From the NCBI GenBank assembly GCA_964564795.1, contig CAZMCJ010000004.1, positions 1-32,414 on the forward strand: a stretch of DNA of 32,414 nt. Direction: 5' to 3'. Position 1 is the stretch's first letter; every line of letters begins with the position of its first letter. The translations under genes and the position numbers were made by a program. Below, piece by piece: positions 2,376 through 32,414 of this stretch. The stretch comes from an uncultured Eubacteriales bacterium. Its GTDB lineage: Bacteria > Bacillota > Clostridia > Oscillospirales > RGIG577. The notes under the pieces were generated by a model. The model did no database searches. It was not told where the DNA came from and saw only the letters and a list, made by a program, of their open reading frames with translations.

Positions 2376-2404
2376 TTGAAAAATAGAGGTTTTTGTGGTA
2401 TTCT
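2376..2404 (+). promoter_or_regulatory. Candidate sigma-70 promoter for gltX-glnS
   Basis: TTGAAA (2376-2381), a 17-nt spacer ending in TGg (extended -10), then TATTCT (2399-2404). This would place the transcription start downstream of the track's 2393 start codon. Confidence 0.4.
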
Positions 2405-2437
2405 AAAATATATGCCCAGAAAGGAAATGAACGTGAA

Positions 2438-4093
2438 ATGAACAATCAAAAATTAGCTGACCTACTATTTAAAGATATTACGAAAACCCCCGCTTATTAC
2501 GAGAAATTATACCCAAAAAGAGAGCTTAAGGAGGGGGCAAAGGTAACAAGAATTGCCCCAAGTCCAACCGGATTTATGCACCTAGGCAACCTTTTTGGCG
2601 CAATAGCGGACGAGCGTCTTGCCCACCAAAGCGGCGGTGTTTTTTACCTTAGAATTGAGGATACCGACAAAAAGCGTGAGGTTGAGGGTGGAGTAGAGAC
2701 AATCTTAAATGTTTTCCACCACTTTGGGCTTAACTTTGACGAAGGCGCAACCCTAACGGGGGACAATGGTGCCTATGGCCCTTACCGCCAACGCCAGCGT
2801 GAGGAAATCTACAAAACATTCGCCAAATCACTTGTTGAAAAAGGTCTTGCCTACCCTTGTTTCTGCACCGAGGAAACCCTTACTTCCATGCGCGAAAAGC
2901 AGGAGAAGAACAAAGAAAACTTTGGCTACTATGGCAAATACGCCCTTCACAGGGATATGCCAATTGAGGAAGTGGAAAAGGAGCTTGCTGCGGGAACTCC
3001 TTATGTTCTGCGCTTTAAGAGCTTTGGAAACACAGATAATAAAGAAAAACACAACGACTTAATAAAAGGATTTATGGAATTCCCAGAGAATGACCAGGAC
3101 GTTGTTATCCTTAAATCAGACGGTATTCCTACCTACCACTTTGCCCACGTTGTGGACGATTACCTAATGCGCACCACCCACGTTGTTCGTGGGGAGGAAT
3201 GGCTGGCAACCTTGCCAATCCACCTCCAACTATTTAAAGCTTTGGAAATTAAACCACCAAAATATGCCCACACCGCACAACTTATGAAAATGGACGGCGA
3301 GAGCAAGCGCAAGCTTTCTAAACGCAAGGACCCAGAGCTAGCCCTTGATTACTACCACCAAATGGGATACCCTGTTCCATCTGTTATAGAGTATTTGCTA
3401 ACTCTGCTTAACTCTAACTTTGAGATGTGGCGCATTGCAAACCCTCTTGAGCCCGTTACAAAATTCCAGTTTTCCACTAACAAGATGAGCGTTTCAGGCT
3501 CGTTGTTTGACGTTGCAAAGCTTATGGATGTTAGCAAAAACGTTATCTCAGTTTTTACCGCAAAGCAGGTTTACGATTATGTTGTTGAATGGGCTAAGAG
3601 CTTTGATATTGACTTTTACCAGCTTTTGACTCGTGATGAAAATTACGCAACAAAGATTTTTGCAATTGGCAGAGGGGGCAAAAAGCCACGTAAGGACATT
3701 GCAACTTGGAGTGAGGTTAAGGACTATATGGGATTCTTCTACGACGAATTGTTTATTCCATCCTACGAGTTCCCCTTCAACGTAACCAAAGAGGATGCAA
3801 TGGATATTTTGAAAAAATACAGTGAAATATATAAGGAAGAAGCGGACACAGGAACGTGGTTCCAAACTATCTGCGATTTATCTGCCGACCTTTCCTTTGC
3901 ACCGTCTACCAAAGAATACAAAGCGAACCCTGAAAAGTATAAGGGTCACCCCGGCGATGTTAGTATGGTAATTCGTGTTGCCATCTCAGGTCGCCAATCG
4001 TCCCCTGATATGTTCGATGTTATGACAATTATGGGGGCGGACAGAGTTAAGCAACGTCTTCAAAGTGCATACGACTACCTTAAAAATTCCTAA
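2438..4093 (+). CDS. gltX: Glutamate--tRNA ligase (long form, about 551 aa)
   Basis: Class I aaRS motifs are present: HIGH-type PSPTGFMHLGN and KMSKS-type KLSKRK. I prefer the ATG at 2438 (MNNQKLADLL), with AAGGAA upstream, over the non-ATG start at 2393 in the track. Confidence 0.9.
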   Translation: MNNQKLADLLFKDITKTPAYYEKLYPKRELKEGAKVTRIAPSPTGFMHLGNLFGAIADERLAHQSGGVFYLRIEDTDKKREVEGGVETILNVFHHFGLNFDEGATLTGDNGAYGPYRQRQREEIYKTFAKSLVEKGLAYPCFCTEETLTSMREKQEKNKENFGYYGKYALHRDMPIEEVEKELAAGTPYVLRFKSFGNTDNKEKHNDLIKGFMEFPENDQDVVILKSDGIPTYHFAHVVDDYLMRTTHVVRGEEWLATLPIHLQLFKALEIKPPKYAHTAQLMKMDGESKRKLSKRKDPELALDYYHQMGYPVPSVIEYLLTLLNSNFEMWRIANPLEPVTKFQFSTNKMSVSGSLFDVAKLMDVSKNVISVFTAKQVYDYVVEWAKSFDIDFYQLLTRDENYATKIFAIGRGGKKPRKDIATWSEVKDYMGFFYDELFIPSYEFPFNVTKEDAMDILKKYSEIYKEEADTGTWFQTICDLSADLSFAPSTKEYKANPEKYKGHPGDVSMVIRVAISGRQSSPDMFDVMTIMGADRVKQRLQSAYDYLKNS

Positions 4094-4113
4094 AAGTGAA
4101 AGGAGCAACTTTA

Positions 4114-5757
4114 ATGCAAATGATTGATTCAAATTTTATAACGGAAATTATTGATAGGGATTTGGAGAAAAACCCTAACCTTAAAATACGCACACGTTTC
4201 CCACCAGAGCCAAACGGATACCTCCATATTGGCAGTGCAAAGGCAATTTACATCAGCTATATGTCTGCAAAAAAATATGGTGGCACATTCAATCTGCGCT
4301 ATGATGATACCAACCCGTCAAGGGAGGATGTCGAGTACGTTAACTCCATCAAAGAGGACCTGTTGTGGCTGGGCGCAGTACCGGACGGCGGAATTTTTTA
4401 CGGCAGTGACTACTTTAACGAGTGCTACGAGTTTGCAGTTAAGCTAATCAAGGAGGGCAAGGCTTACGTTTGCAACCTTTGTGTGGAGGAGATACGCAAC
4501 TACCGTGGCACCCTTACAACGCCGGGCAAAAACAGCCCCTACCGTGATAGGAGCATCGAGGAAAACCTGGAGCTTTTTGAGAAGATGAAAAATGGTGACT
4601 TTGCTGAGGGAGAGTGTACCCTAAGGGCAAAGATTGATATGGCATCGCCAAATATGAATATGCGTGACCCTGCAATCTACCGAATTGCAAAGGTGCATCA
4701 CCACCGCCAAGGCAACGACTGGTGCATATACCCGCTTTATGATTATGCACACCCAATCCAAGATGCGCTAGAGGGGATTACACATTCCCTTTGCTCAATT
4801 GAGTTTGAGAACCACCGCCCACTTTACGATTGGGTTGTAGATAATATTGGTTTTGAGCATAAGCCACACCAGTACGAATTTGCTCGCCTTAACGTTACCA
4901 AAACTGTTATGAGCAAGCGCTACTTGCGTGAGCTTGTGGAGAAGGAATATGTGGACGGGTGGGACGACCCAAGAATGCCAACCCTTTGTGGGCTACGCCG
5001 CAGGGGCTACACCCCTTCCTCCCTTTTTGAGTTTGTGCGTCGTGCAGGCGTTTCCAAGGCTTACTCCGTTGTTGATGTTGCCCTTTTGGAGCATTGTATA
5101 CGTGACGAGCTTAACACAAATGCCGACCGCAAAATTGTGGTTTTGGATCCTCTTAAGGTTACCATTACCAATTACCCAGCGGATAAATGCGAGTATTTTA
5201 GTATTTCCAATAACCCAAATAATCCGAACGCTACAAGACGCGAGGTTCCATTCACCGGCGAAATTTTTGTGGAGCGTGCTGACTTCTGCGAGGCTCCTGT
5301 TGGCAAGTTCTTCCGCCTAAAGCCAGATGGCGAGGTACGCTTGATGGGTGCATATGTAATAAAATGCAACGAAATTATAAAGGACGAAAATGGTGAGGTT
5401 GTGGAGCTGCGTTGCACCGCCGACCTTGAAACCGGAGGGAAAAACCCAACCGACGGCAGAAAAATCAAGGGTACAATTCACTGGGTTAGCTCCTCGCATT
5501 GCGAAGATATCACCGTTAATATGTATGATTATCTATTTACCGTTGATGATTTTTCTAATCTTAATGAGGGGGAGAGTTATCTTGATTACCTCAACCCACA
5601 AAGTTTAGTTACCCTTAAAAATTGCAAGGCAGAAAAATCAATATCCGACACAAATAGTGGGGATAAGTTCCAGTTTGTGCGCAATGGCTACTTCTGCAAG
5701 GATACCAAAAATGAAAACACCTTTAACCTGATCGTAGGTCTGAAAGATAGTAAGTAA
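4114..5757 (+). CDS. glnS: Glutamine--tRNA ligase
   Basis: It has PEPNGYLHIGSAK (HIGH), VMSKR (KMSKS) and GlnRS-typical blocks (FNLRYDDTNP, YPLYDYAHP). The ATG at 4114 is preceded by AAAGGAG; the track's GTG at 4096 lies inside the RBS region. Confidence 0.9.
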   Translation: MQMIDSNFITEIIDRDLEKNPNLKIRTRFPPEPNGYLHIGSAKAIYISYMSAKKYGGTFNLRYDDTNPSREDVEYVNSIKEDLLWLGAVPDGGIFYGSDYFNECYEFAVKLIKEGKAYVCNLCVEEIRNYRGTLTTPGKNSPYRDRSIEENLELFEKMKNGDFAEGECTLRAKIDMASPNMNMRDPAIYRIAKVHHHRQGNDWCIYPLYDYAHPIQDALEGITHSLCSIEFENHRPLYDWVVDNIGFEHKPHQYEFARLNVTKTVMSKRYLRELVEKEYVDGWDDPRMPTLCGLRRRGYTPSSLFEFVRRAGVSKAYSVVDVALLEHCIRDELNTNADRKIVVLDPLKVTITNYPADKCEYFSISNNPNNPNATRREVPFTGEIFVERADFCEAPVGKFFRLKPDGEVRLMGAYVIKCNEIIKDENGEVVELRCTADLETGGKNPTDGRKIKGTIHWVSSSHCEDITVNMYDYLFTVDDFSNLNEGESYLDYLNPQSLVTLKNCKAEKSISDTNSGDKFQFVRNGYFCKDTKNENTFNLIVGLKDSK

Positions 5758-13665: not shown

Positions 13666-13725
13666 TTTGTATTCCTCCTTGATTTTTATATATCTTTTTT
13701 TTAAAAAGCTAAATATACCTACTTA

Positions 13726-13754
13726 ATTTTATCACTTTTTCCATACTATGTAAA
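13726..13754 (-). promoter_or_regulatory. Candidate sigma-70 promoter for PFOR
   Basis: On the minus strand: TTTACA, a 17-nt spacer ending in TGa, then TAAAAT (extended -10). Confidence 0.4.
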
Positions 13755-13865
13755 GGTTATTTATTAAGTAAATATTAATATTTCGTGAAAATTTAAACAA
13801 TTTTGCATTAATACAAATTTATTCAAAAAAATCTGTCTTCTTGCACATATTAAATGCAATTCCCT

Positions 13866-15443
13866 CTACCCGTCAATCTCCAATGTTTTTATCCTTCGCC
13901 ACAAACTCGTTGTTGATATGCCTAAATATTTAGCCGTTTTTAGTTTCGATGCACCATTTGCCTTTAAAGCGGCTGTTATAATTTCCTTTTCGTACTGGTT
14001 CATAAGCTCCGCCAAATTGGTTTGGATTGCACCCTCCTCCATATTATTGCCATTCATTGCGTTGTTTTTAAGCTTAATTGGCAAGTATATTTTCTTAATT
14101 TTTGTATCTGTGCCTATTATCATAAAGATGTTCTCTATTACGCTGTGTAGCTCACCTATGTTGCCTTTCCAGTTATATGAACAAAGCATTTCAATTGCAT
14201 CTTGGTCCACTGTCTCCACAAATTTTCCATAATTTTTGTTGAGCCTTCGTATAAAATACTCCACAAAAAGAGGAATATCCTCTTTAATTTCCCTAAGTGG
14301 TGGCAAGTGCAAAATACCTTTAGAAATCTCATTATAGATTGTTTGAGCGAATGTTTTGTTTTGTTGCATTTCGTTTATGCGTTGACTATCTGCGCAAAAA
14401 ATCCTAACATCAACCTTAATTTTCTTACGGCTTCCAATTCTTGAAACCTCACCACTTTGGATAACCTTTAAAACCTTGTTTTGCATATCCATATCAAGCT
14501 TGTGAATTCCGATTATTAGCAGTGTCCCACCGTTTGCCTCCTCAAAAGCGCCTGAGCTACCTCCCCTTTTAACACCTTTGAATATTGCGTCCTCATAGCC
14601 GAAAAAGGTGCTCTCTATAAGTGTTTCATCAATTGTTCCACAATTAACCGTTATGAATGGCTTATGCCAACGCTCACTTGCATTATGCATTGCTCCTGCA
14701 AAGGTTTCCTTCCCGGTACCCGCCTCTCCAATTATCAAAACGTTGTCATCTGTTTTTGCCAGTGCAACAGCTGTTGCAATAATCTGTTGCTTCTTGGGCG
14801 ATTTTGTAATTATATCGTTAAATGTAAAGCGTGCAATTTTGTTCTTCCTTATTTCGTCAATCAGCTTCTGGCGAGATTGCACCGTGTCATCATTGTTAAA
14901 ACCGAAACCAAAATTAGGGCTAAGTGGAATTCTTATTGCTCTTGAGCCAACAATATAATTGGACTCACCAATAACAGCAACTCCGTCCTCCATTGCCTTT
15001 TTAGCCGCATCGCTCTCTTTGCCTATAAACTCATCACTAATCTCCCCTTTAGAGTTAACAGAATGTGTGCGCACCCCTTTTGCATCAAACATAACTGCAT
15101 CACCACCAGTTATTTTTGAAATGTGTGGCAACGCATCTGATATTATATTAAAAAGCTTTTTCTCATAGCTTGAGAAACATTCTTTATGTCCGCCAATAAT
15201 GTAATCACCAAATGGAATAACCCACATTACATCATCGCTTTTAAAGGGTGACTTTATCTGACCCGCAAAGCCACCTTCGATTATTTTTTTTGCGCCATTT
15301 AGCCTGTTTATTTTACCATTTTTGACCGCCTCGCCACTCGAATCCATAGCAACTATAAAGTTGCCATGCTTATCCCACAATGCGCTATATCCACCTTGCG
15401 CCTTTGCAATATTGGCTATCAGCTCAAGCATCGCATGTAACAT
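13866..15443 (-). CDS. Sigma-54 EBP-like transcriptional regulator with a degenerate AAA+ core and a C-terminal Fis-type HTH
   Basis: 525-aa ORF. Walker A GEAGTGKE (aa 239-246), LPPLREIKEDI and the C-terminal HTH TAKYLGISTTSLWRRIK place it in the NtrC/EBP family. GAFTGA, Walker B DE, the arginine fingers and the sensor II arginine are all substituted (see findings). An RBS, GGGGTGA, is present. The gene starts 31 nt after the preceding cluster gene. Confidence 0.8.
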   Translation of the reverse strand: MLHAMLELIANIAKAQGGYSALWDKHGNFIVAMDSSGEAVKNGKINRLNGAKKIIEGGFAGQIKSPFKSDDVMWVIPFGDYIIGGHKECFSSYEKKLFNIISDALPHISKITGGDAVMFDAKGVRTHSVNSKGEISDEFIGKESDAAKKAMEDGVAVIGESNYIVGSRAIRIPLSPNFGFGFNNDDTVQSRQKLIDEIRKNKIARFTFNDIITKSPKKQQIIATAVALAKTDDNVLIIGEAGTGKETFAGAMHNASERWHKPFITVNCGTIDETLIESTFFGYEDAIFKGVKRGGSSGAFEEANGGTLLIIGIHKLDMDMQNKVLKVIQSGEVSRIGSRKKIKVDVRIFCADSQRINEMQQNKTFAQTIYNEISKGILHLPPLREIKEDIPLFVEYFIRRLNKNYGKFVETVDQDAIEMLCSYNWKGNIGELHSVIENIFMIIGTDTKIKKIYLPIKLKNNAMNGNNMEEGAIQTNLAELMNQYEKEIITAALKANGASKLKTAKYLGISTTSLWRRIKTLEIDG

Positions 15444-26965: not shown

Positions 26966-26996
26966 AATTTTACTCCTTTATATTTGAATTTTTAGT

Positions 26997-27071
26997 CCTT
27001 ACCACATAAAAACCAACAATGTTTATTGGTTTTTATGTGGTAAGGCAAGGGAAAATTTCCCTTGCCTTACC
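26997..27071 (-). promoter_or_regulatory. Two overlapping, mutually exclusive perfect hairpins in the permease-hgd intercistronic gap
   Basis: Hairpin B has a 20-bp perfect stem, 26997-27016 with 27026-27045. Hairpin A has a 14-bp GC-rich stem, 27039-27052 with 27058-27071. Both need the 7-nt segment 27039-27045 (GGTAAGG on the plus strand). Confidence 0.6.
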
Positions 27072-27092
27072 ACTATATTGGGGGGATTGATA

Positions 27093-28202: not shown

Positions 28203-30437
28203 TTATTTGTTAAGCTCGCGTAGCACATCCGTTGGTGTGATAGGAAGCTTATTAAATCTAACGCCAATTGCGTTTTCAATTGCACCCACAATAGCAGGAA
28301 TTATTGGAATAAGTGCCGGCTCTCCAACGCCCTTAGCGCCAAATGGTCCAGCCTCGCCCCCGCTTTCAACCACTATTGGGTAAATTTCAGGAATATCCAT
28401 TGATGTTGCCAGCAAATATTTAGAGAACATAGGATTTGTAATTCTGCCGTTTGTAACCTCAACTTTTTCAAAAAGCGCAAAACCTTGACCCATTACAACG
28501 CCACCCTCGATTTGACCTTCTACCATTTGCTTGTTAATTGCCTGGCCTACGTCGTGCGCAGAAACAACCTTTGTAAGGTATACTCTTCCTGTTTCTGTAT
28601 CCACCTCAACCTCTGCAACTGTTGTTGCATATGCATATGCCTCGTAAGGGATACCGCTCATATCAACAGGAGAAAGAAGTGTTGCATTTGGGTTGTATGA
28701 ACCTGCTCCAACAGCAAGCTTACCAAACTTCTTCATTTCTGCCATTAGGTCAATATAGCTCATCTTAATGCTATTGTCCTTTGCACTGAATATTTCGTTA
28801 TCTTTAAATATCAAGTCGTCCGCTTCTACTTTTAATACAGCAGACGCAACGCCCTTTAGTGTTTCCTTCGCCATTTTTGCTGCATTTCTGCTTGCATTAC
28901 CAGAGATAAATGTTTGTCTAGATGCGCTGGTTGCTCCACCCTCCGGTGTTACTGCCGTGTCTGCGGAGATAACGTTAACGTTATCATAAGAAACGCCAAG
29001 CTCCTCTGCAACAATTTGCGCCATAACAGTTGTTGACCCTTGACCGATATCCGCACAGCCAACCATAAGGTTAACCGAAGCATCATGCAAAACCTCAACA
29101 AAAGCAGCAGATGGGTTTGGAAGACCGGTGTTGCCAATTCCATACCACATTGAAGCAACGCTTCTGCCCTTAATGTTTTTATCCATAACTTCGTTTGCTT
29201 TAGCCTCTGCTTTGTCAAGTGTTTCTATAAGACCCATAGACTCAGTAAGAATTTGACCTGTTGCAATCTCACTACCAATCTTGTGGGCATTAATTCTTCT
29301 GATTTCATAGCCGTCCATATTAAGTGCCTTTGCAAGAGCATCCATTTGACCCTCGTGGCAAACTGCAATTTGTGGAACGCCGAACCCTCTAAACGCACCG
29401 CTCATTGGGTTGTTTGTGTAAACAAAGGTTGCATCAACCTTAACGTTTGGTATTTCATAAGGCCCTGTTGCATGAACCATTGCCCTTGTTATAACCGCAG
29501 GTCCGTAAGATGCGTATGCACCGGTATCACCCTCTATATAGCAATACATTGCAACCAATTTACCGTCTTTTGTTGCGCCTGTTTTTGCTGTCATCTTCAT
29601 TGGGTGACGTTTAGAGGAAACCATGTTAGATTCTTTTCTTCCCCTAACCATTTTAACCGGACGCTTTGTGTGGTAAGCAAGAAGTGCCATATGGCATTGA
29701 ACAGAAATATCAAGCTTTCCTCCAAAACCACCACCCGTTGTAAGCTGAACGCTTCTAACTTTGCTGTTTGGCATATTAAGCATTTTTGCAACTTCGCCTC
29801 TATCAAAGTGAGGATTTTGGGTGGAGCTATAAATTGTTATAATTCCATCTTCATACTTTGCAAGACCACCGTCCGGCTCAATATACATATGAGAAAGCAT
29901 TGCTGTTTCGTATGTGTTTTCCACAATAACGTCACATTTCTTAAACGCTTCATCTATTTCCATACCATGCGAAAGAACCTTCTTTTGCATTATATTGGTT
30001 GTTCCGATAATCTTTGGAGAATCCTCCTCCAACGCTCTTTCAACAGTTAAAATCGCTTCAATTTCTTCATACTCAATTGCAACCAGCTTTGCCGCTTCCT
30101 CTGCAATTTCCATTGTTTCTGCACCGATAACCGCAATAGCATCGCCATATCTTCTAACCTTGTCATCAACCAAAACCGGCTCATCTTTAAAAATAATACC
30201 AATTCTGTTGCTACCGGGAATATCCTTGCTTGTTAGCACTGCAACAACGCCCTCTAGAGCTTTTGCCTTTTCCAAATCAATACTTTTTATATAAGCAGAT
30301 GGAACTGTGCTTCTTACAACAACGCCATAAATCATATTTGGAATTTCCATATCTGCAGCGAAAACAGCCTTGCCCAAAACTTTATCCATAGCATCCTTTT
30401 TAAGGACGCTTTTGCCAATTACTGAAAAGTCTTTCAT
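28203..30437 (-). CDS. Molybdopterin-binding large subunit of a xanthine dehydrogenase-family hydroxylase, assigned as nicotinate dehydrogenase Mo subunit (fused NdhL+NdhM equivalent)
   Basis: About 744 aa counted from [10 protein letters not shown], with an RBS AAAGGAGG. It has the Mo-hydroxylase motifs TTGGGFGGK and [10 protein letters not shown], and the C-terminal catalytic Glu region AKGVGEPAL. Confidence 0.8.
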
Positions 30438-30453
30438 TACATTACCTCCTTTA

Positions 30454-30918
30454 CTATTTTTCGATAGCCATCTCAACAGCGTTGATTATTTTTGTGTAAC
30501 CTGTGCATCTGCAAAGGTTGCCCGAAAGTGCTCTTTTAATTTCGTCCCTTGATGGGTTTTTATTTTCTATAAACAATGCCTTTGCGGAAAGTATCATTCC
30601 CGGTGTGCAGTATCCGCATTGAACAGCGCCTGCGTCCAAAAACGCTTGTTGCAATCTATCTAGCTCGCCGTTTTTATAAAGCCCTTCAAGAGTAACAACT
30701 GTGCAACCGTCCACTTGACCTGCAAGCATAAGGCAAGAGGTAACAGCCTTATCATCAACTATTATTGTGCAGGCACCACATTCGCCCTCTGAGCACCCTT
30801 CTTTAACGCTTTTTATTCCAAAATCGTCACGAAGCATATCTATAAGCCTTTTGTTTGGTGCAATTTCCGCACTAACTTTTTCATAATTCAGTGTAAATTC
30901 AACTTTAATTTTTTCCAT
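30454..30918 (-). CDS. ndhS: [2Fe-2S]-binding small subunit of the Mo hydroxylase (nicotinate dehydrogenase small subunit)
   Basis: It has the plant-type motif CSEGECGAC...C, the second-cluster motif CGYCTPGM...CRCTGY, and is about 154 aa long. I prefer the ATG at 30918, 8 nt after the G-run RBS, over 30924. Confidence 0.85.
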
Positions 30919-31907: not shown

Positions 31908-31951
31908 ATTTCCCACTAAACATTTCAAAAGTGAAATGTTTAGTGGGAAAT
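31908..31951. promoter_or_regulatory. Perfect 20-bp inverted repeat (4-nt spacer) in the divergent intergenic region; candidate operator or UAS
   Basis: ATTTCCCACTAAACATTTCA (31908-31927), then AAAG, then TGAAATGTTTAGTGGGAAAT (31932-31951). The two arms are exact reverse complements. Confidence 0.6.
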
Positions 31952-32087: not shown

Positions 32088-32414
32088 ATGAAAAAATTAA
32101 CTAGTTTTGTGCTAGCTGCAATTATGTCTTTAACATTGGTTGCTTGCTCTGCTCCAGCTCCCGCTCCAACGCCAACACCGGAACCACCAAAGGTTGAAAC
32201 TCCTTCACCCGAGGTAAAACCAGAGTTCTCTCCCATTACCCTAACCGACCACGCAGGACGAGAAGTTAAGGTCGAAAAAGAGTTTGATCGAATCGTTAGC
32301 GGATACTACATCACAACGTCCACACTTATTGCACTTGGTCTTGAAGACAAGGTTGTTGGGCTTGAGGCGAAAGCCAAATCCCGTCCCATTTACTCCCTTG
32401 CTGCTCCACAATTG
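32088..32414 (+). CDS. ABC transporter substrate-binding lipoprotein, siderophore/cobalamin (FhuD/BtuF-like) class; N-terminal part, runs off the right edge
   Basis: My own translation gives [95 protein letters not shown]... This shows a lipobox (LVAC), a Pro/Thr-rich linker, and then the block typical of periplasmic-binding-protein type 2 N-termini. GAGGTG lies 5 nt upstream. Confidence 0.75.

What the first reader, a model, noticed from the sequence alone, without database searches (positions are those of the whole stretch)
14109..14816. Cluster-linked sigma-54 EBP-like regulator has a gutted AAA+ core
I aligned the protein by eye to the NtrC/PspF consensus. Walker A is intact (GEAGTGKE, aa 239-246). 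So are the fold-marking blocks (ESxxFG, GGTL, VDVRI, LPPLRE..EDI). The catalytic and coupling residues are all replaced:
- GAFTGA becomes AIFKGV (aa 286-291), so the sigma-54-contacting Thr is Lys.
- The Walker B LFLDEI block becomes LLIIGI (Asp to Ile311, Glu to Gly312).
- The arginine-finger block FREDLYYRL becomes FAQTIYNEI (Arg to Ala366, Arg to Glu372).
- The sensor II block WPGNVRELEN becomes WKGNIGELHS (Arg to Gly430).

Such a protein should not hydrolyse ATP or remodel sigma-54 holoenzyme. Consistent with this, I found no TGGCAC-N5-TTGCW element in any intergenic gap of the cluster. The ndhF upstream region instead has a good extended -10 sigma-70 promoter. This looks like an EBP scaffold repurposed as a ligand-responsive sigma-70 regulator (conceptually like TyrR or HupR), here for a nicotinate regulon. 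The gene lies at the 3' end of the cluster, 31 nt after the previous ORF, with no terminator between them.
Basis: seen in the sequence. Interest (0 to 1): 0.7.

Follow-up and report, generated by a model that had tools for sequence, protein, structure and literature searches.

The report
Dead-ATPase regulator of nicotinate fermentation genes
A regulator at the end of a nicotinate-fermentation operon belongs to a family that normally drives sigma-54 promoters, but its lineage has lost every catalytic and sigma-54-contacting residue while keeping its sensor, DNA-binding domain and DNA site, and its operon has ordinary sigma-70-type promoter elements instead.

Summary
The 525-aa minus-strand ORF (13866-15443) has tandem PAS-like domains, an EBP-type AAA+ domain and a Fis-type HTH. 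Alignments place AIFKGV at GAFTGA, LLIIGI at Walker B, FAQTIYNEI at the arginine fingers and WKGNIGEL at sensor II. Walker A is intact.

The protein belongs to an apparently undescribed regulator family attached to anaerobic nicotinate-fermentation clusters. About 28 of 35 family sequences examined keep every motif. Three independent intact loci carry a palindrome, ATTTCA-N4-TGAAAT, upstream of near-consensus -24/-12 promoters.

The window protein and four other representatives form a clade (99/100 bootstrap). This clade lost the L1 and L2 loops, Walker B Asp-Glu, sensor I, both arginine fingers and the sensor II Arg. It kept the P-loop, the PAS sensor and the HTH.

Three degenerate-clade loci keep one such palindrome and have no GG-N10-GC promoter element downstream of it. 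Two have an extended -10 exactly 92.5 nt from the palindrome centre.

The most likely reading is an atypical EBP, like TyrR or VpsR, acting on sigma-70 RNA polymerase from the ancestral enhancer site. Activator versus repressor, ATP binding and the genome's rpoN status are untested. I class it as a new member of a known kind, of moderate interest.

The parts
13866..15443 (-). Regulator gene (525 aa): tandem PAS-like sensor, degenerate EBP-type AAA+ domain, AAA lid and Fis-type HTH
   Evidence: ORF; Pfam domains; AlphaFold model with pLDDT 82.6; AAA+ part superposes on ZraR, FlrC, FleQ and NtrC1 with TM 0.90-0.94 and rmsd 1.6-2.2 A
14844..15443 (-). N-terminal tandem PAS-like sensor (aa 1-200), with no Pfam match
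   Evidence: Model pLDDT 89. Foldseek hits to tandem-PAS or double-PDC sensors (FixL, PpsR, MmoS, DctB) at probability about 0.8-1.0 but low TM. No Pfam family. Residues invariant across the family are kept
14706..14729 (-). Walker A P-loop GEAGTGKE (aa 239-246), intact
   Evidence: G239, G242, T243, G244 and K245 are kept in all five degenerate-clade representatives
14571..14588 (-). L1 loop AIFKGV in place of GAFTGA (aa 286-291); the sigma-54-contacting Thr is Lys
   Evidence: The clade-wide derived motif is D-A-x-[FYLI]-[KR]-G-[VIL]
14505..14522 (-). Walker B position LLIIGI (aa 308-313): Asp311 to Ile, Glu312 to Gly
14379..14408 (-). Sensor I region VRIFCADSQR; the conserved Thr-Asn (AATN) is replaced
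14325..14351 (-). Arginine-finger block FAQTIYNEI (aa 365-373): Arg366 to Ala, Arg372 to Glu
14148..14171 (-). Sensor II block WKGNIGEL (aa 425-432): Arg430 to Gly
13887..13994 (-). Fis-type HTH (aa 484-519) with recognition helix LGISTTSLWRRIK, conserved with the intact family
   Evidence: HTH identity 0.59 within the degenerate clade, 0.41 among intact members
31908..31951 (.). Perfect 20-bp-arm palindrome. Its core ATTTCA-CTTT-TGAAAT (31922-31937) is the family's enhancer or operator site, and it is the only copy in the window
   Evidence: Across 2.14 Mb of fetched loci, about 0.09 perfect hits are expected by chance. Hits occur only beside EBP genes with this recognition helix
31832..31859 (-). 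Sigma-70-type promoter candidate: TTCGCA, 16 nt, then TATAAT with the extended TG (TGATATAAT at 31840-31832). The palindrome centre lies 92.5 nt upstream of the -10 hexamer
   Evidence: The same spacing to TGGTATAAT or TGATATAAT is seen in the distant degenerate-clade loci L173 and L088
31899..31928 (-). Alternative sigma-70-like match TTGAAA-18-TAAAAT overlapping the right arm of the palindrome. It would imply repression if real. It is not conserved in L173 or L171
15475..31797 (-). Co-directional nicotinate-fermentation genes upstream of the regulator: ndhF, ndhS, fused ndhLM, an EIIC_2-type transporter, hmd, dmdA, dmdB, mgm, mii, a glmL-like gene, dml, ena, hnr and an ApbE-like gene
   Evidence: Pfam and NCBIfam scans. 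The same order is found in L171. Gene names follow the Eubacterium barkeri pathway from my own knowledge

Best explanation
The ORF encodes an atypical enhancer-binding protein.

Its ancestor was a tandem-PAS, sigma-54-dependent activator dedicated to the anaerobic nicotinate-fermentation cluster. That ancestor bound ATTTCA-N4-TGAAAT palindromes upstream of -24/-12 promoters.

In the lineage leading to the window protein, the L1 loop Thr changed to Lys or Arg and the first Gly to Ala. This change is shared by the whole clade and would have broken the coupling to sigma-54. The residues needed only for ATP hydrolysis then decayed to different residues in each lineage. These are the Walker B Asp-Glu, sensor I, both arginine fingers and the sensor II Arg.

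The P-loop, the PAS sensor, the HTH and the DNA site were retained. The operon promoter was replaced by a sigma-70-type promoter, here an extended -10.

The protein therefore most likely binds the single palindrome centred about 105 bp upstream of the ndhF transcription start. From there it probably modulates sigma-70 RNA polymerase in response to a pathway metabolite sensed by the PAS domains, most probably as an activator. Nucleotide binding without hydrolysis may serve assembly only. Because its gene is the last one of the operon it controls, it would autoregulate.

Shown by sequence: the motif losses, monophyly of the clade, retention of the site, absence of -24/-12 elements and presence of sigma-70-type elements.
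Inferred: sigma-70 dependence, the direction of control, the ligand, nucleotide binding and autoregulation.
For: - The motif register is confirmed against solved EBPs and 35 family sequences.
- The AAA+ fold is predicted intact.
- Family members, intact or degenerate, lie in or beside nicotinate clusters.
- The degenerate five are monophyletic: 99/100 bootstrap on all columns and 86/100 on the AAA+ domain with all motif blocks removed.
- Conservation pattern: P-loop residues are kept in 5 of 5. L1, L2, Walker B, sensor I, the arginine fingers and sensor II are lost in at least 4 of 5. PAS2 and HTH identity is higher within the degenerate clade (0.52, 0.59) than among intact members (0.39, 0.41). 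The AAA+ core is lower (0.38 against 0.60).
- Intact loci L082, L084 and L090 carry 1-3 perfect palindromes followed by TGGCA-type -24/-12 elements with 0-1 mismatch, in the correct gap and orientation, at all 5 promoters.
- Degenerate loci (window, L171, L173/L088) each carry one palindrome and no credible GG-N10-GC promoter element downstream of it.
- An extended -10 lies exactly 92.5 nt from the palindrome centre both in the window and in L173/L088. Their regulators are less than 50% identical.
- In all three degenerate loci the palindrome lies upstream of the -35 region of the best promoter candidate, which is where activators usually bind.
- The perfect palindrome is highly specific: about 0.09 expected in 2.14 Mb, and all observed copies lie beside EBP genes with this recognition helix.
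Against: - There is no experimental data.
- Sigma-70-like matches are not enriched in this AT-rich DNA (48 found against 40.3 +/- 5.7 in shuffles), so the promoter assignment is only a consensus match.
- A second sigma-70-like match overlaps the palindrome in the window, which would fit repression.
- L171 lacks the 92.5-nt geometry. Its best candidate promoter puts the site near -65.
- The 92.5-nt coincidence rests on two independent lineages only.
- The L173/L088 site is a variant (GTGTCA-N4-TGACAC), not the family consensus.
- L001, another degenerate-clade locus, has a -24/-12-like CGGCACGCCCCGTGCT between the regulator and the next gene. Sigma-54 may therefore still be present in some of these organisms.
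- rpoN status of the source genome could not be checked.
- An activator site at about -105 on a sigma-70 promoter is unusually distal.
Confidence: 0.55

Rival explanations
1. The protein is a ligand-relieved repressor. It sits on the palindrome and blocks a sigma-70 promoter that overlaps it, or it loops or roadblocks from there, and it dissociates when a nicotinate-pathway metabolite binds the PAS domains.
For: TTGAAA-18-TAAAAT (31928-31899) overlaps the right arm of the palindrome. Atypical EBPs such as NtrX and TyrR can repress (PMC6158489, and my own knowledge for TyrR). A hydrolysis-dead AAA+ domain is enough for a DNA-binding repressor.
Against: The overlapping promoter-like match is largely produced by the half-site itself, since TGAAA resembles a -35. 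It is not conserved in L173/L088 or L171. The conserved element is the extended -10, 92.5 nt downstream. In all three loci the site lies upstream of the best promoter candidate.
Confidence: 0.2
2. The gene is a decaying relic with no regulatory role. The operon is simply transcribed from a constitutive sigma-70 promoter after the lineage lost sigma-54 dependence.
For: Catalytic residues were replaced by different residues in each lineage. AAA+ identity within the clade is low (0.38), and branches are long.
Against: The ORF is intact at full length in five lineages that are less than 50% identical. The P-loop, PAS2, the HTH and a new shared L1 motif (D-A-x-x-K/R-G) are conserved. A palindromic site is retained upstream of the first gene (ndhF or hmd) in all three degenerate loci, perfectly matching the family consensus in two of them. 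The fold is predicted intact.
Confidence: 0.08
3. The protein still feeds into sigma-54 control indirectly. It could be a catalytically dead subunit or anti-activator that forms mixed rings with an intact paralogue encoded elsewhere, or it could act at a non-canonical sigma-54 promoter.
For: A -24/-12-like element lies next to the degenerate regulator in L001. Mixed AAA+ rings with inactive subunits are known in other AAA+ families (my own knowledge).
Against: The invariant GG-N10-GC is absent from every cluster gap in the window, and also with N9 or N11 spacing. The only such elements in the L171 and L173 upstream regions are poor matches, lying upstream of the UAS (L171) or downstream of the extended -10 (L173). 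No second EBP gene lies in the window or in the related loci. The L1 and L2 loops are both lost.
Confidence: 0.07

Closest known systems
Intact PAS-PAS-AAA+-HTH EBPs beside nicotinate-fermentation clusters (P0002-P0010, L082, L084, L090). I found no published description.
   Same: Same domain architecture, including the Pfam-less tandem PAS sensor. Same pathway context, same HTH recognition helix and same palindromic DNA site.
   Different: They keep GAFTGA, Walker B Asp-Glu, the arginine fingers and sensor II. They stand as separate genes upstream of or divergent from the operons, and they face near-consensus -24/-12 promoters. The window protein has lost all of these motifs, is embedded at the 3' end of the operon, and faces a sigma-70-type promoter.
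VpsR of Vibrio cholerae (atypical EBP)
   Same: It lacks GAFTGA, has non-catalytic Walker B residues (Asn-Asp), regulates promoters without GG/GC elements, and activates sigma-70 RNA polymerase (PMC6158489).
   Different: VpsR has a receiver domain and needs c-di-GMP. It binds just upstream of the -35 as a class II activator. Here the sensor is a tandem PAS, the site is about 65-105 bp upstream, and sensor I, the arginine fingers and sensor II are lost as well.
TyrR/PhhR (Escherichia coli, Pseudomonas putida)
   Same: One-component, ligand-sensing EBP homologues without a functional GAFTGA. They regulate catabolic or biosynthetic operons at sigma-70 promoters through palindromic boxes (PMC6158489, my own knowledge).
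   Different: TyrR has an ACT-PAS N-terminus and keeps Walker B, the arginine fingers and sensor II (my own knowledge). The window protein fails the TyrR model, scoring 199 bits against a 576-bit cut-off, and lacks an ACT domain.
Rhodobacter capsulatus NtrC and HupR; Brucella NtrX; Myxococcus HsfA
   Same: EBP-family proteins that act without sigma-54, in some cases from distal upstream sites (PMC6158489, my own knowledge).
   Different: All are response regulators from Proteobacteria or Myxococcota. None is linked to nicotinate catabolism. I know of no case with intact relatives in the same narrow, pathway-specific family that use the same DNA site with sigma-54 promoters.
Eubacterium barkeri nicotinate fermentation cluster (Alhapel et al. 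2006; the paper was not readable here)
   Same: The same pathway enzymes are present: ndh, hnr, ena, hmd, dmd, mgm, mii and dml (pathway names from my own knowledge).
   Different: The window cluster lacks hgd, has a fused ndhL-ndhM, and ends with this regulator. I could not check what regulator the E. barkeri cluster carries.

Membership tests
Canonical sigma-54-dependent bEBP (NtrC/PspF type) | AAA+ domain homologous to PF00158 with the EBP fold | tested here: met
   163 bits against a 20.2-bit cut-off. The model superposes on ZraR, FlrC, FleQ and NtrC1 with TM 0.90-0.94.
Canonical sigma-54-dependent bEBP (NtrC/PspF type) | GAFTGA L1 loop with the sigma-54-contacting Thr | tested here: not met
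   AIFKGV, with Thr replaced by Lys289.
Canonical sigma-54-dependent bEBP (NtrC/PspF type) | Walker B hhhhDE | tested here: not met
   LLIIGI, with D311I and E312G.
Canonical sigma-54-dependent bEBP (NtrC/PspF type) | Arginine fingers (FRxDLYYRL) and sensor II Arg | tested here: not met
   R366A, R372E and R430G.
Canonical sigma-54-dependent bEBP (NtrC/PspF type) | Target promoter of the -24 GG / -12 GC type | tested here: not met
   No GG-N10-GC (or N9 or N11) in any gap within the cluster, from upstream of ndhF to the regulator. Intact relatives have such elements.
Canonical sigma-54-dependent bEBP (NtrC/PspF type) | C-terminal HTH binding an upstream palindromic enhancer | tested here: met
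   HTH_8 domain. Perfect family palindrome at 31922-31937. Binding itself was not tested.
Canonical sigma-54-dependent bEBP (NtrC/PspF type) | rpoN present in the genome and required for expression | not testable with these tools
   The window is a single 32.4-kb NCBI contig of an uncultured Clostridia bacterium.
Atypical EBPs acting without sigma-54 (TyrR, PhhR, HupR, NtrX, VpsR, HsfA) | EBP-homologous AAA+ domain lacking a functional GAFTGA | tested here: met
Atypical EBPs acting without sigma-54 (TyrR, PhhR, HupR, NtrX, VpsR, HsfA) | Regulated promoters lack -24/-12 elements and carry sigma-70-type elements | tested here: met
   At sequence level only.
Atypical EBPs acting without sigma-54 (TyrR, PhhR, HupR, NtrX, VpsR, HsfA) | Demonstrated rpoN-independent, sigma-70-dependent regulation | not testable with these tools
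   Needs in vitro transcription or genetics.
TyrR (NCBIfam NF008085) | Score above the equivalog cut-off, and an ACT-PAS N-terminus | tested here: not met
   199.3 bits against a 576-bit cut-off, matching only aa 206-519. No ACT domain hit.
PrdR (NCBIfam NF041552), the best-scoring named EBP model | Score above the equivalog cut-off over the full length | tested here: not met
   278 bits against a 795-bit cut-off, with only the AAA+ and HTH regions aligned.
Nicotinate-cluster tandem-PAS EBP family (defined here) | Full-length homology including the Pfam-less N-terminal tandem PAS, a nicotinate-cluster neighbourhood, and the ATTTCA-N4-TGAAAT site | tested here: met
   for homology. for context. 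for the site.

The most novel reading that the evidence does not exclude
This family may be a natural before-and-after pair for conversion of a sigma-54 system into a sigma-70 system. The same sensor, HTH and enhancer palindrome serve the same pathway in both states. In one clade the -24/-12 promoter was swapped for an extended -10 held at a fixed 92.5-nt distance. In that clade the AAA+ motor became a nucleotide-binding but hydrolysis-dead scaffold that activates sigma-70 RNA polymerase from about -105. That would make it a rare example from Firmicutes, with a one-component PAS sensor, of how enhancer-dependent activators turn into conventional ones.
Probability: 0.4. Interest if true: 0.6.

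Novelty: new member of a known kind. Interest (0 to 1): 0.45.

Why it matters
Atypical EBPs such as TyrR, VpsR, NtrX and HupR are usually studied as isolated oddities. They are sometimes described as evolutionary links between sigma-54 and sigma-70 control (PMC6158489).

Here, related regulators within one narrow family control the same pathway through the same DNA site, in both the intact sigma-54 state and the dead-ATPase state. This gives a directly testable system for three questions:
- the order of events: loss of L1 coupling first, then decay of the hydrolysis residues, while the P-loop is kept;
- what a hydrolysis-dead AAA+ ring contributes to sigma-70 activation;
- how promoters are rewired beneath a conserved enhancer.

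It also gives a first regulatory model for anaerobic nicotinate fermentation (regulator, DNA site and promoter type). I found nothing on this in the searchable literature.

Tried and rejected
1. A search with the N-terminal domain alone returned nothing, not even the query itself. This is a limit of the word prefilter. The exhaustive profile search replaced it.
2. The genome-contig scan with the family profile was swamped by generic EBPs. Only L002 matched at full length.
3. The NdhF-anchored metagenome scan mostly returned clusters with other gene orders and no family regulator. Only L090 was informative.
4. Organism identification:
   - The exact look-up of the window regulator found no contig.
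   - All window proteins are singletons at 90% identity.
   - The best named PFOR relatives are unclassified Clostridia or Eubacteriales MAGs at about 76% identity; unnamed hits reach 79-80%.
5. The Alhapel 2006 paper on the E. barkeri cluster is not held. The Clostridiales sigma-54 regulon paper has no nicotinate regulon.
6. I considered TAGCATATTTCGCA (31868-31853) as a relic of a -24/-12 element. The spacing is 2 nt too short, GG is AG, and no alignment supports it, so I left it as speculation.
7. No riboswitch or other Rfam family lies anywhere in the window. RNA-based control of ndhF by a known family is therefore unlikely.
8. The first bootstrap script timed out. It was rerun with a faster distance routine.
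Full report
**Observation.** The finding lies in the minus-strand ORF 13866-15443 (525 aa). Pfam places Sigma54_activat at aa 211-374 (E 6.7e-48), AAA_lid_14 at 384-465 and HTH_8 at 484-519.
- Walker A GEAGTGKE is intact.
- GAFTGA is AIFKGV.
- GGTLFLDEI is GGTLLIIGI.
- FRxDLYYRL is FAQTIYNEI.
- WPGNVREL is WKGNIGEL.

Sensor I (AATN to CADS) and the L2-region block LRVLQE are also altered. I checked all coordinates by translation. The gap to the preceding ORF is 31 nt and contains a GGGGTG ribosome-binding site. The only terminator-like match near it is a weak 5-bp stem inside the preceding ORF.

**Context.** Upstream on the same strand lies an Eubacterium barkeri-type nicotinate fermentation cluster (gene names from my own knowledge of the pathway). 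In order it contains:
- ndhF, ndhS and a fused ndhLM;
- an EIIC_2-type transporter;
- hmd, dmdA, dmdB and mgm;
- mii (PrpF family) and a GlmL-like gene;
- dml, ena, hnr and an ApbE-like gene.

The regulator follows, and then an unrelated PFOR gene. The window is an NCBI contig. All its proteins are singletons at 90% identity. Its PFOR is 79-80% identical to unnamed proteins and about 76% to proteins of unnamed Clostridia or Eubacteriales MAGs.

**The family.** Full-length relatives are only 33-45% identical. An exhaustive profile search of 1.84 billion representatives found about 23 full-length family representatives. A motif table of 35 sequences shows that about 28 keep every catalytic and coupling motif.

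Five sequences share a derived L1 motif, D-A-x-[FYLI]-[KR]-G-[VIL]. They are P0001 (the window), P0011, P0135, P0147 and P0150. All five lack Walker B Asp-Glu, the sensor I Thr-Asn, both arginine fingers and the sensor II Arg. The replacements differ from lineage to lineage.

These five are monophyletic in neighbour-joining trees. Bootstrap support is 99/100 on all columns and 86/100 on the AAA+ domain with every motif block removed. It is only 35/100 on the N-terminus alone.

Of 98 positions that are at least 90% conserved in intact members, the P-loop residues G239, G242, T243, G244 and K245 survive in all five degenerate sequences. Many PAS2 and HTH positions survive too. Mean pairwise identity within the degenerate clade, compared with intact members, is as follows:

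| Domain | Degenerate clade | Intact members |
|---|---|---|
| PAS2 | 0.52 | 0.39 |
| HTH | 0.59 | 0.41 |
| AAA+ core | 0.38 | 0.60 |

This is the signature of a protein that still senses and still binds DNA but no longer needs its motor. It is not the signature of a pseudogene. P0133 shows an independent, partial loss elsewhere in the tree: the L1 loop is deleted while Walker B is kept.

**Genomic association.** Intact and degenerate members alike lie in or beside nicotinate-fermentation genes.
- Intact members: L082/L083, L084, L085 and L090.
- Degenerate members: L001, L087/L171, L088/L089/L173 and L086.

In four of the five degenerate lineages (all but the short L086 contig) the regulator is embedded co-directionally near the 3' end of the operon. 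In three of them (L001, L087/L171, L088/L089) it is followed by an AA_synth gene and, where the contig reaches far enough (L001, L087), an SDH_alpha-like hgd gene. The window lacks both of those genes.

**Promoters and DNA sites.** I scanned for TGGCAC-N5-TTGCW, requiring the invariant GG and GC. In the intact loci this found near-consensus elements in the expected gap and orientation at all five promoters examined:

| Locus | Position | Sequence | Gene downstream |
|---|---|---|---|
| L084 | 3068 | TGGCAGCGAATTTGCA | ndhF |
| L084 | 8132 | TGGCATGAAAATTGCT | hmd |
| L082 | 9141 | TGGCACGATGATTGCA | hmd |
| L082 | 9818 | TGGCATGATTATTGCT | nifU-like gene |
| L090 | 9899 | TGGCAAAGAAGTTGCA | ndhF |

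The ndhF and hmd promoters are preceded by 1-3 perfect copies of ATTTCA-N4-TGAAAT.

The window has one perfect copy (31922-31937) inside a 20-bp-arm perfect palindrome. It has no GG-N10-GC at all in any cluster gap on the coding strand. Instead there is TTCGCA-16-TATAAT with an extended TG at 31859-31832.

Two further degenerate-clade loci with 5' regions behave the same way.
- **L171.** It has the same gene order as the window and one perfect palindrome (861-876). There is no GG-N10-GC between the palindrome and ndhF. A TTGACT-17-TATTTT candidate is present.
- **L173/L088.** They have a perfect variant palindrome, GTGTCA-CTTT-TGACAC, and an extended -10 (TGGTATAAT or TGATATAAT). The hexamer starts 92.5 nt from the palindrome centre, the same distance as in the window.

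Across 2.14 Mb of fetched loci, about 0.09 perfect family palindromes are expected by chance. All those observed lie beside EBP genes with this recognition helix.

**Structure.** The full model has pLDDT 82.6. Its AAA+ domain superposes on canonical EBPs with TM 0.90-0.94 and rmsd 1.6-2.2 A. Only the L1 tip (291-294) is disordered. The N-terminal 200 residues model with pLDDT 89 as two tandem PAS-like modules. The best Foldseek hits are tandem-PAS or double-PDC sensors: FixL, PpsR, MmoS and DctB. Probabilities are 0.99-1.0 for the tandem-PAS hits and 0.8-0.9 for DctB, but global TM scores are low because the inter-domain orientation differs.

**Mechanism.** The best-supported reading is an atypical EBP. 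It binds the ancestral enhancer site through its conserved HTH and senses a pathway metabolite through the PAS pair. It can neither hydrolyse ATP nor touch sigma-54, and it acts on sigma-70 RNA polymerase.

The site lies upstream of the best promoter candidate in all three degenerate loci, at about -105 in two and about -65 in one. That position favours activation over occlusion. The conserved P-loop suggests that nucleotide binding is kept for assembly, as has been argued for other atypical EBPs (my own knowledge). The gene's position in the operon implies autoregulation. All of these functional steps are inferences.

**Rivals.**
- A ligand-relieved repressor. A second sigma-70-like match overlaps the palindrome in the window, but it is not conserved.
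- A functionless relic. Domain conservation and site retention argue against it.
- Residual indirect linkage to sigma-54. L001 has a -24/-12-like element next to its degenerate regulator.

**Comparison and novelty.** Atypical EBPs acting without sigma-54 are known. TyrR, PhhR, HupR, HsfA, NtrX and VpsR are listed in PMC6158489, and VpsR likewise has non-catalytic Walker B residues. The window protein works like these but is not a member of TyrR or PrdR by NCBIfam scores.

Three things are new:
- the family itself; I found no description of a regulator for anaerobic nicotinate fermentation;
- the completeness of the loss;
- the existence of intact relatives in the same family that use the same DNA site with sigma-54 promoters.

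I rate it a new member of a known kind and of moderate interest.

**Limits.**
- rpoN status is unknown.
- Promoter calls are consensus matches in AT-rich DNA.
- Only three independent loci per class have promoter regions.
- The trees are distance-based.
- The key E. barkeri paper could not be read.

Noticed in passing
window 13666-13865 and the whole window; compare L001 6242-8267 and L087 11608-13611: The window has no homologue of hgd, the SDH_alpha-like 2-(hydroxymethyl)glutarate dehydratase. It also lacks the AA_synth gene that follows the regulator in other degenerate-clade loci. A PFOR gene follows the regulator instead, so one pathway step is missing from this cluster (tblastn).
   Followed up: partly
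window 26966-27092 (gap between the EIIC_2 transporter gene and hmd): There are two very stable adjacent hairpins with shared GUGGUAAGG/CCUUACCAC segments that allow alternative pairing. MFE is -49 kcal/mol, z = -8.2, and there is no Rfam match. This could be an internal attenuator, a processing site or a repeat element.
   Followed up: partly
window 28203-30476: The nicotinate dehydrogenase large and medium Mo-binding subunits are fused into one 757-aa ORF. They are split into about 424-437 aa and 327-330 aa ORFs in L084 and L171.
   Followed up: no
L001 6191-6206: CGGCACGCCCCGTGCT is a -24/-12-like element with 2 mismatches. It lies in the 95-nt gap between a degenerate-clade regulator and the AA_synth-hgd genes. 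If it is real, sigma-54 is still used in that organism.
   Followed up: partly
L029 10900-11100 (Oscillospiraceae MAG): An EBP with a different N-terminus but the same recognition helix (LGISTTTLWRRM) ends in a perfect ATTTCA-N4-TGAAAT. A perfect TGGCACGGTTATTGCT follows about 100 nt further on. No nicotinate genes are nearby, so this DNA site is used by a wider group of EBPs.
   Followed up: partly
P0133 / L170 904-2703: This is an independent, partial degeneration in another branch of the family. The GAFTGA loop is deleted, an arginine finger is Leu and the sensor II Arg is Thr, but Walker B Asp-Glu is kept. The gene lies next to an ApbE-like gene.
   Followed up: partly
L088, L173 (GCA_021203245.1, GCA_021205245.1): Contigs carrying a Clostridia-type nicotinate fermentation cluster with a degenerate regulator are labelled 'Planctomycetaceae bacterium' MAGs in NCBI. 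This could be mis-binning or horizontal transfer.
   Followed up: no
window 2393-4093 and 4096-5757: Two adjacent class I Glu/Gln-type aminoacyl-tRNA synthetase genes lie 2 nt apart. One is GluRS-like with an Anticodon_2 domain and the other is GlnRS-like.
   Followed up: no
window 32088-32414 (+ strand): A gene diverging from ndhF begins [21 protein letters not shown]..., which looks like a lipoprotein signal with a lipobox Cys. It shares the 290-bp control region with the palindrome and runs off the end of the window.
   Followed up: no
window 31908-31951; L084 2878-2921; L090 9563-9594: The palindromes extend well beyond the 6-bp half-sites, with 16-20-bp arms at 85-100% complementarity. 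This is longer than a simple HTH dimer site would need.
   Followed up: no
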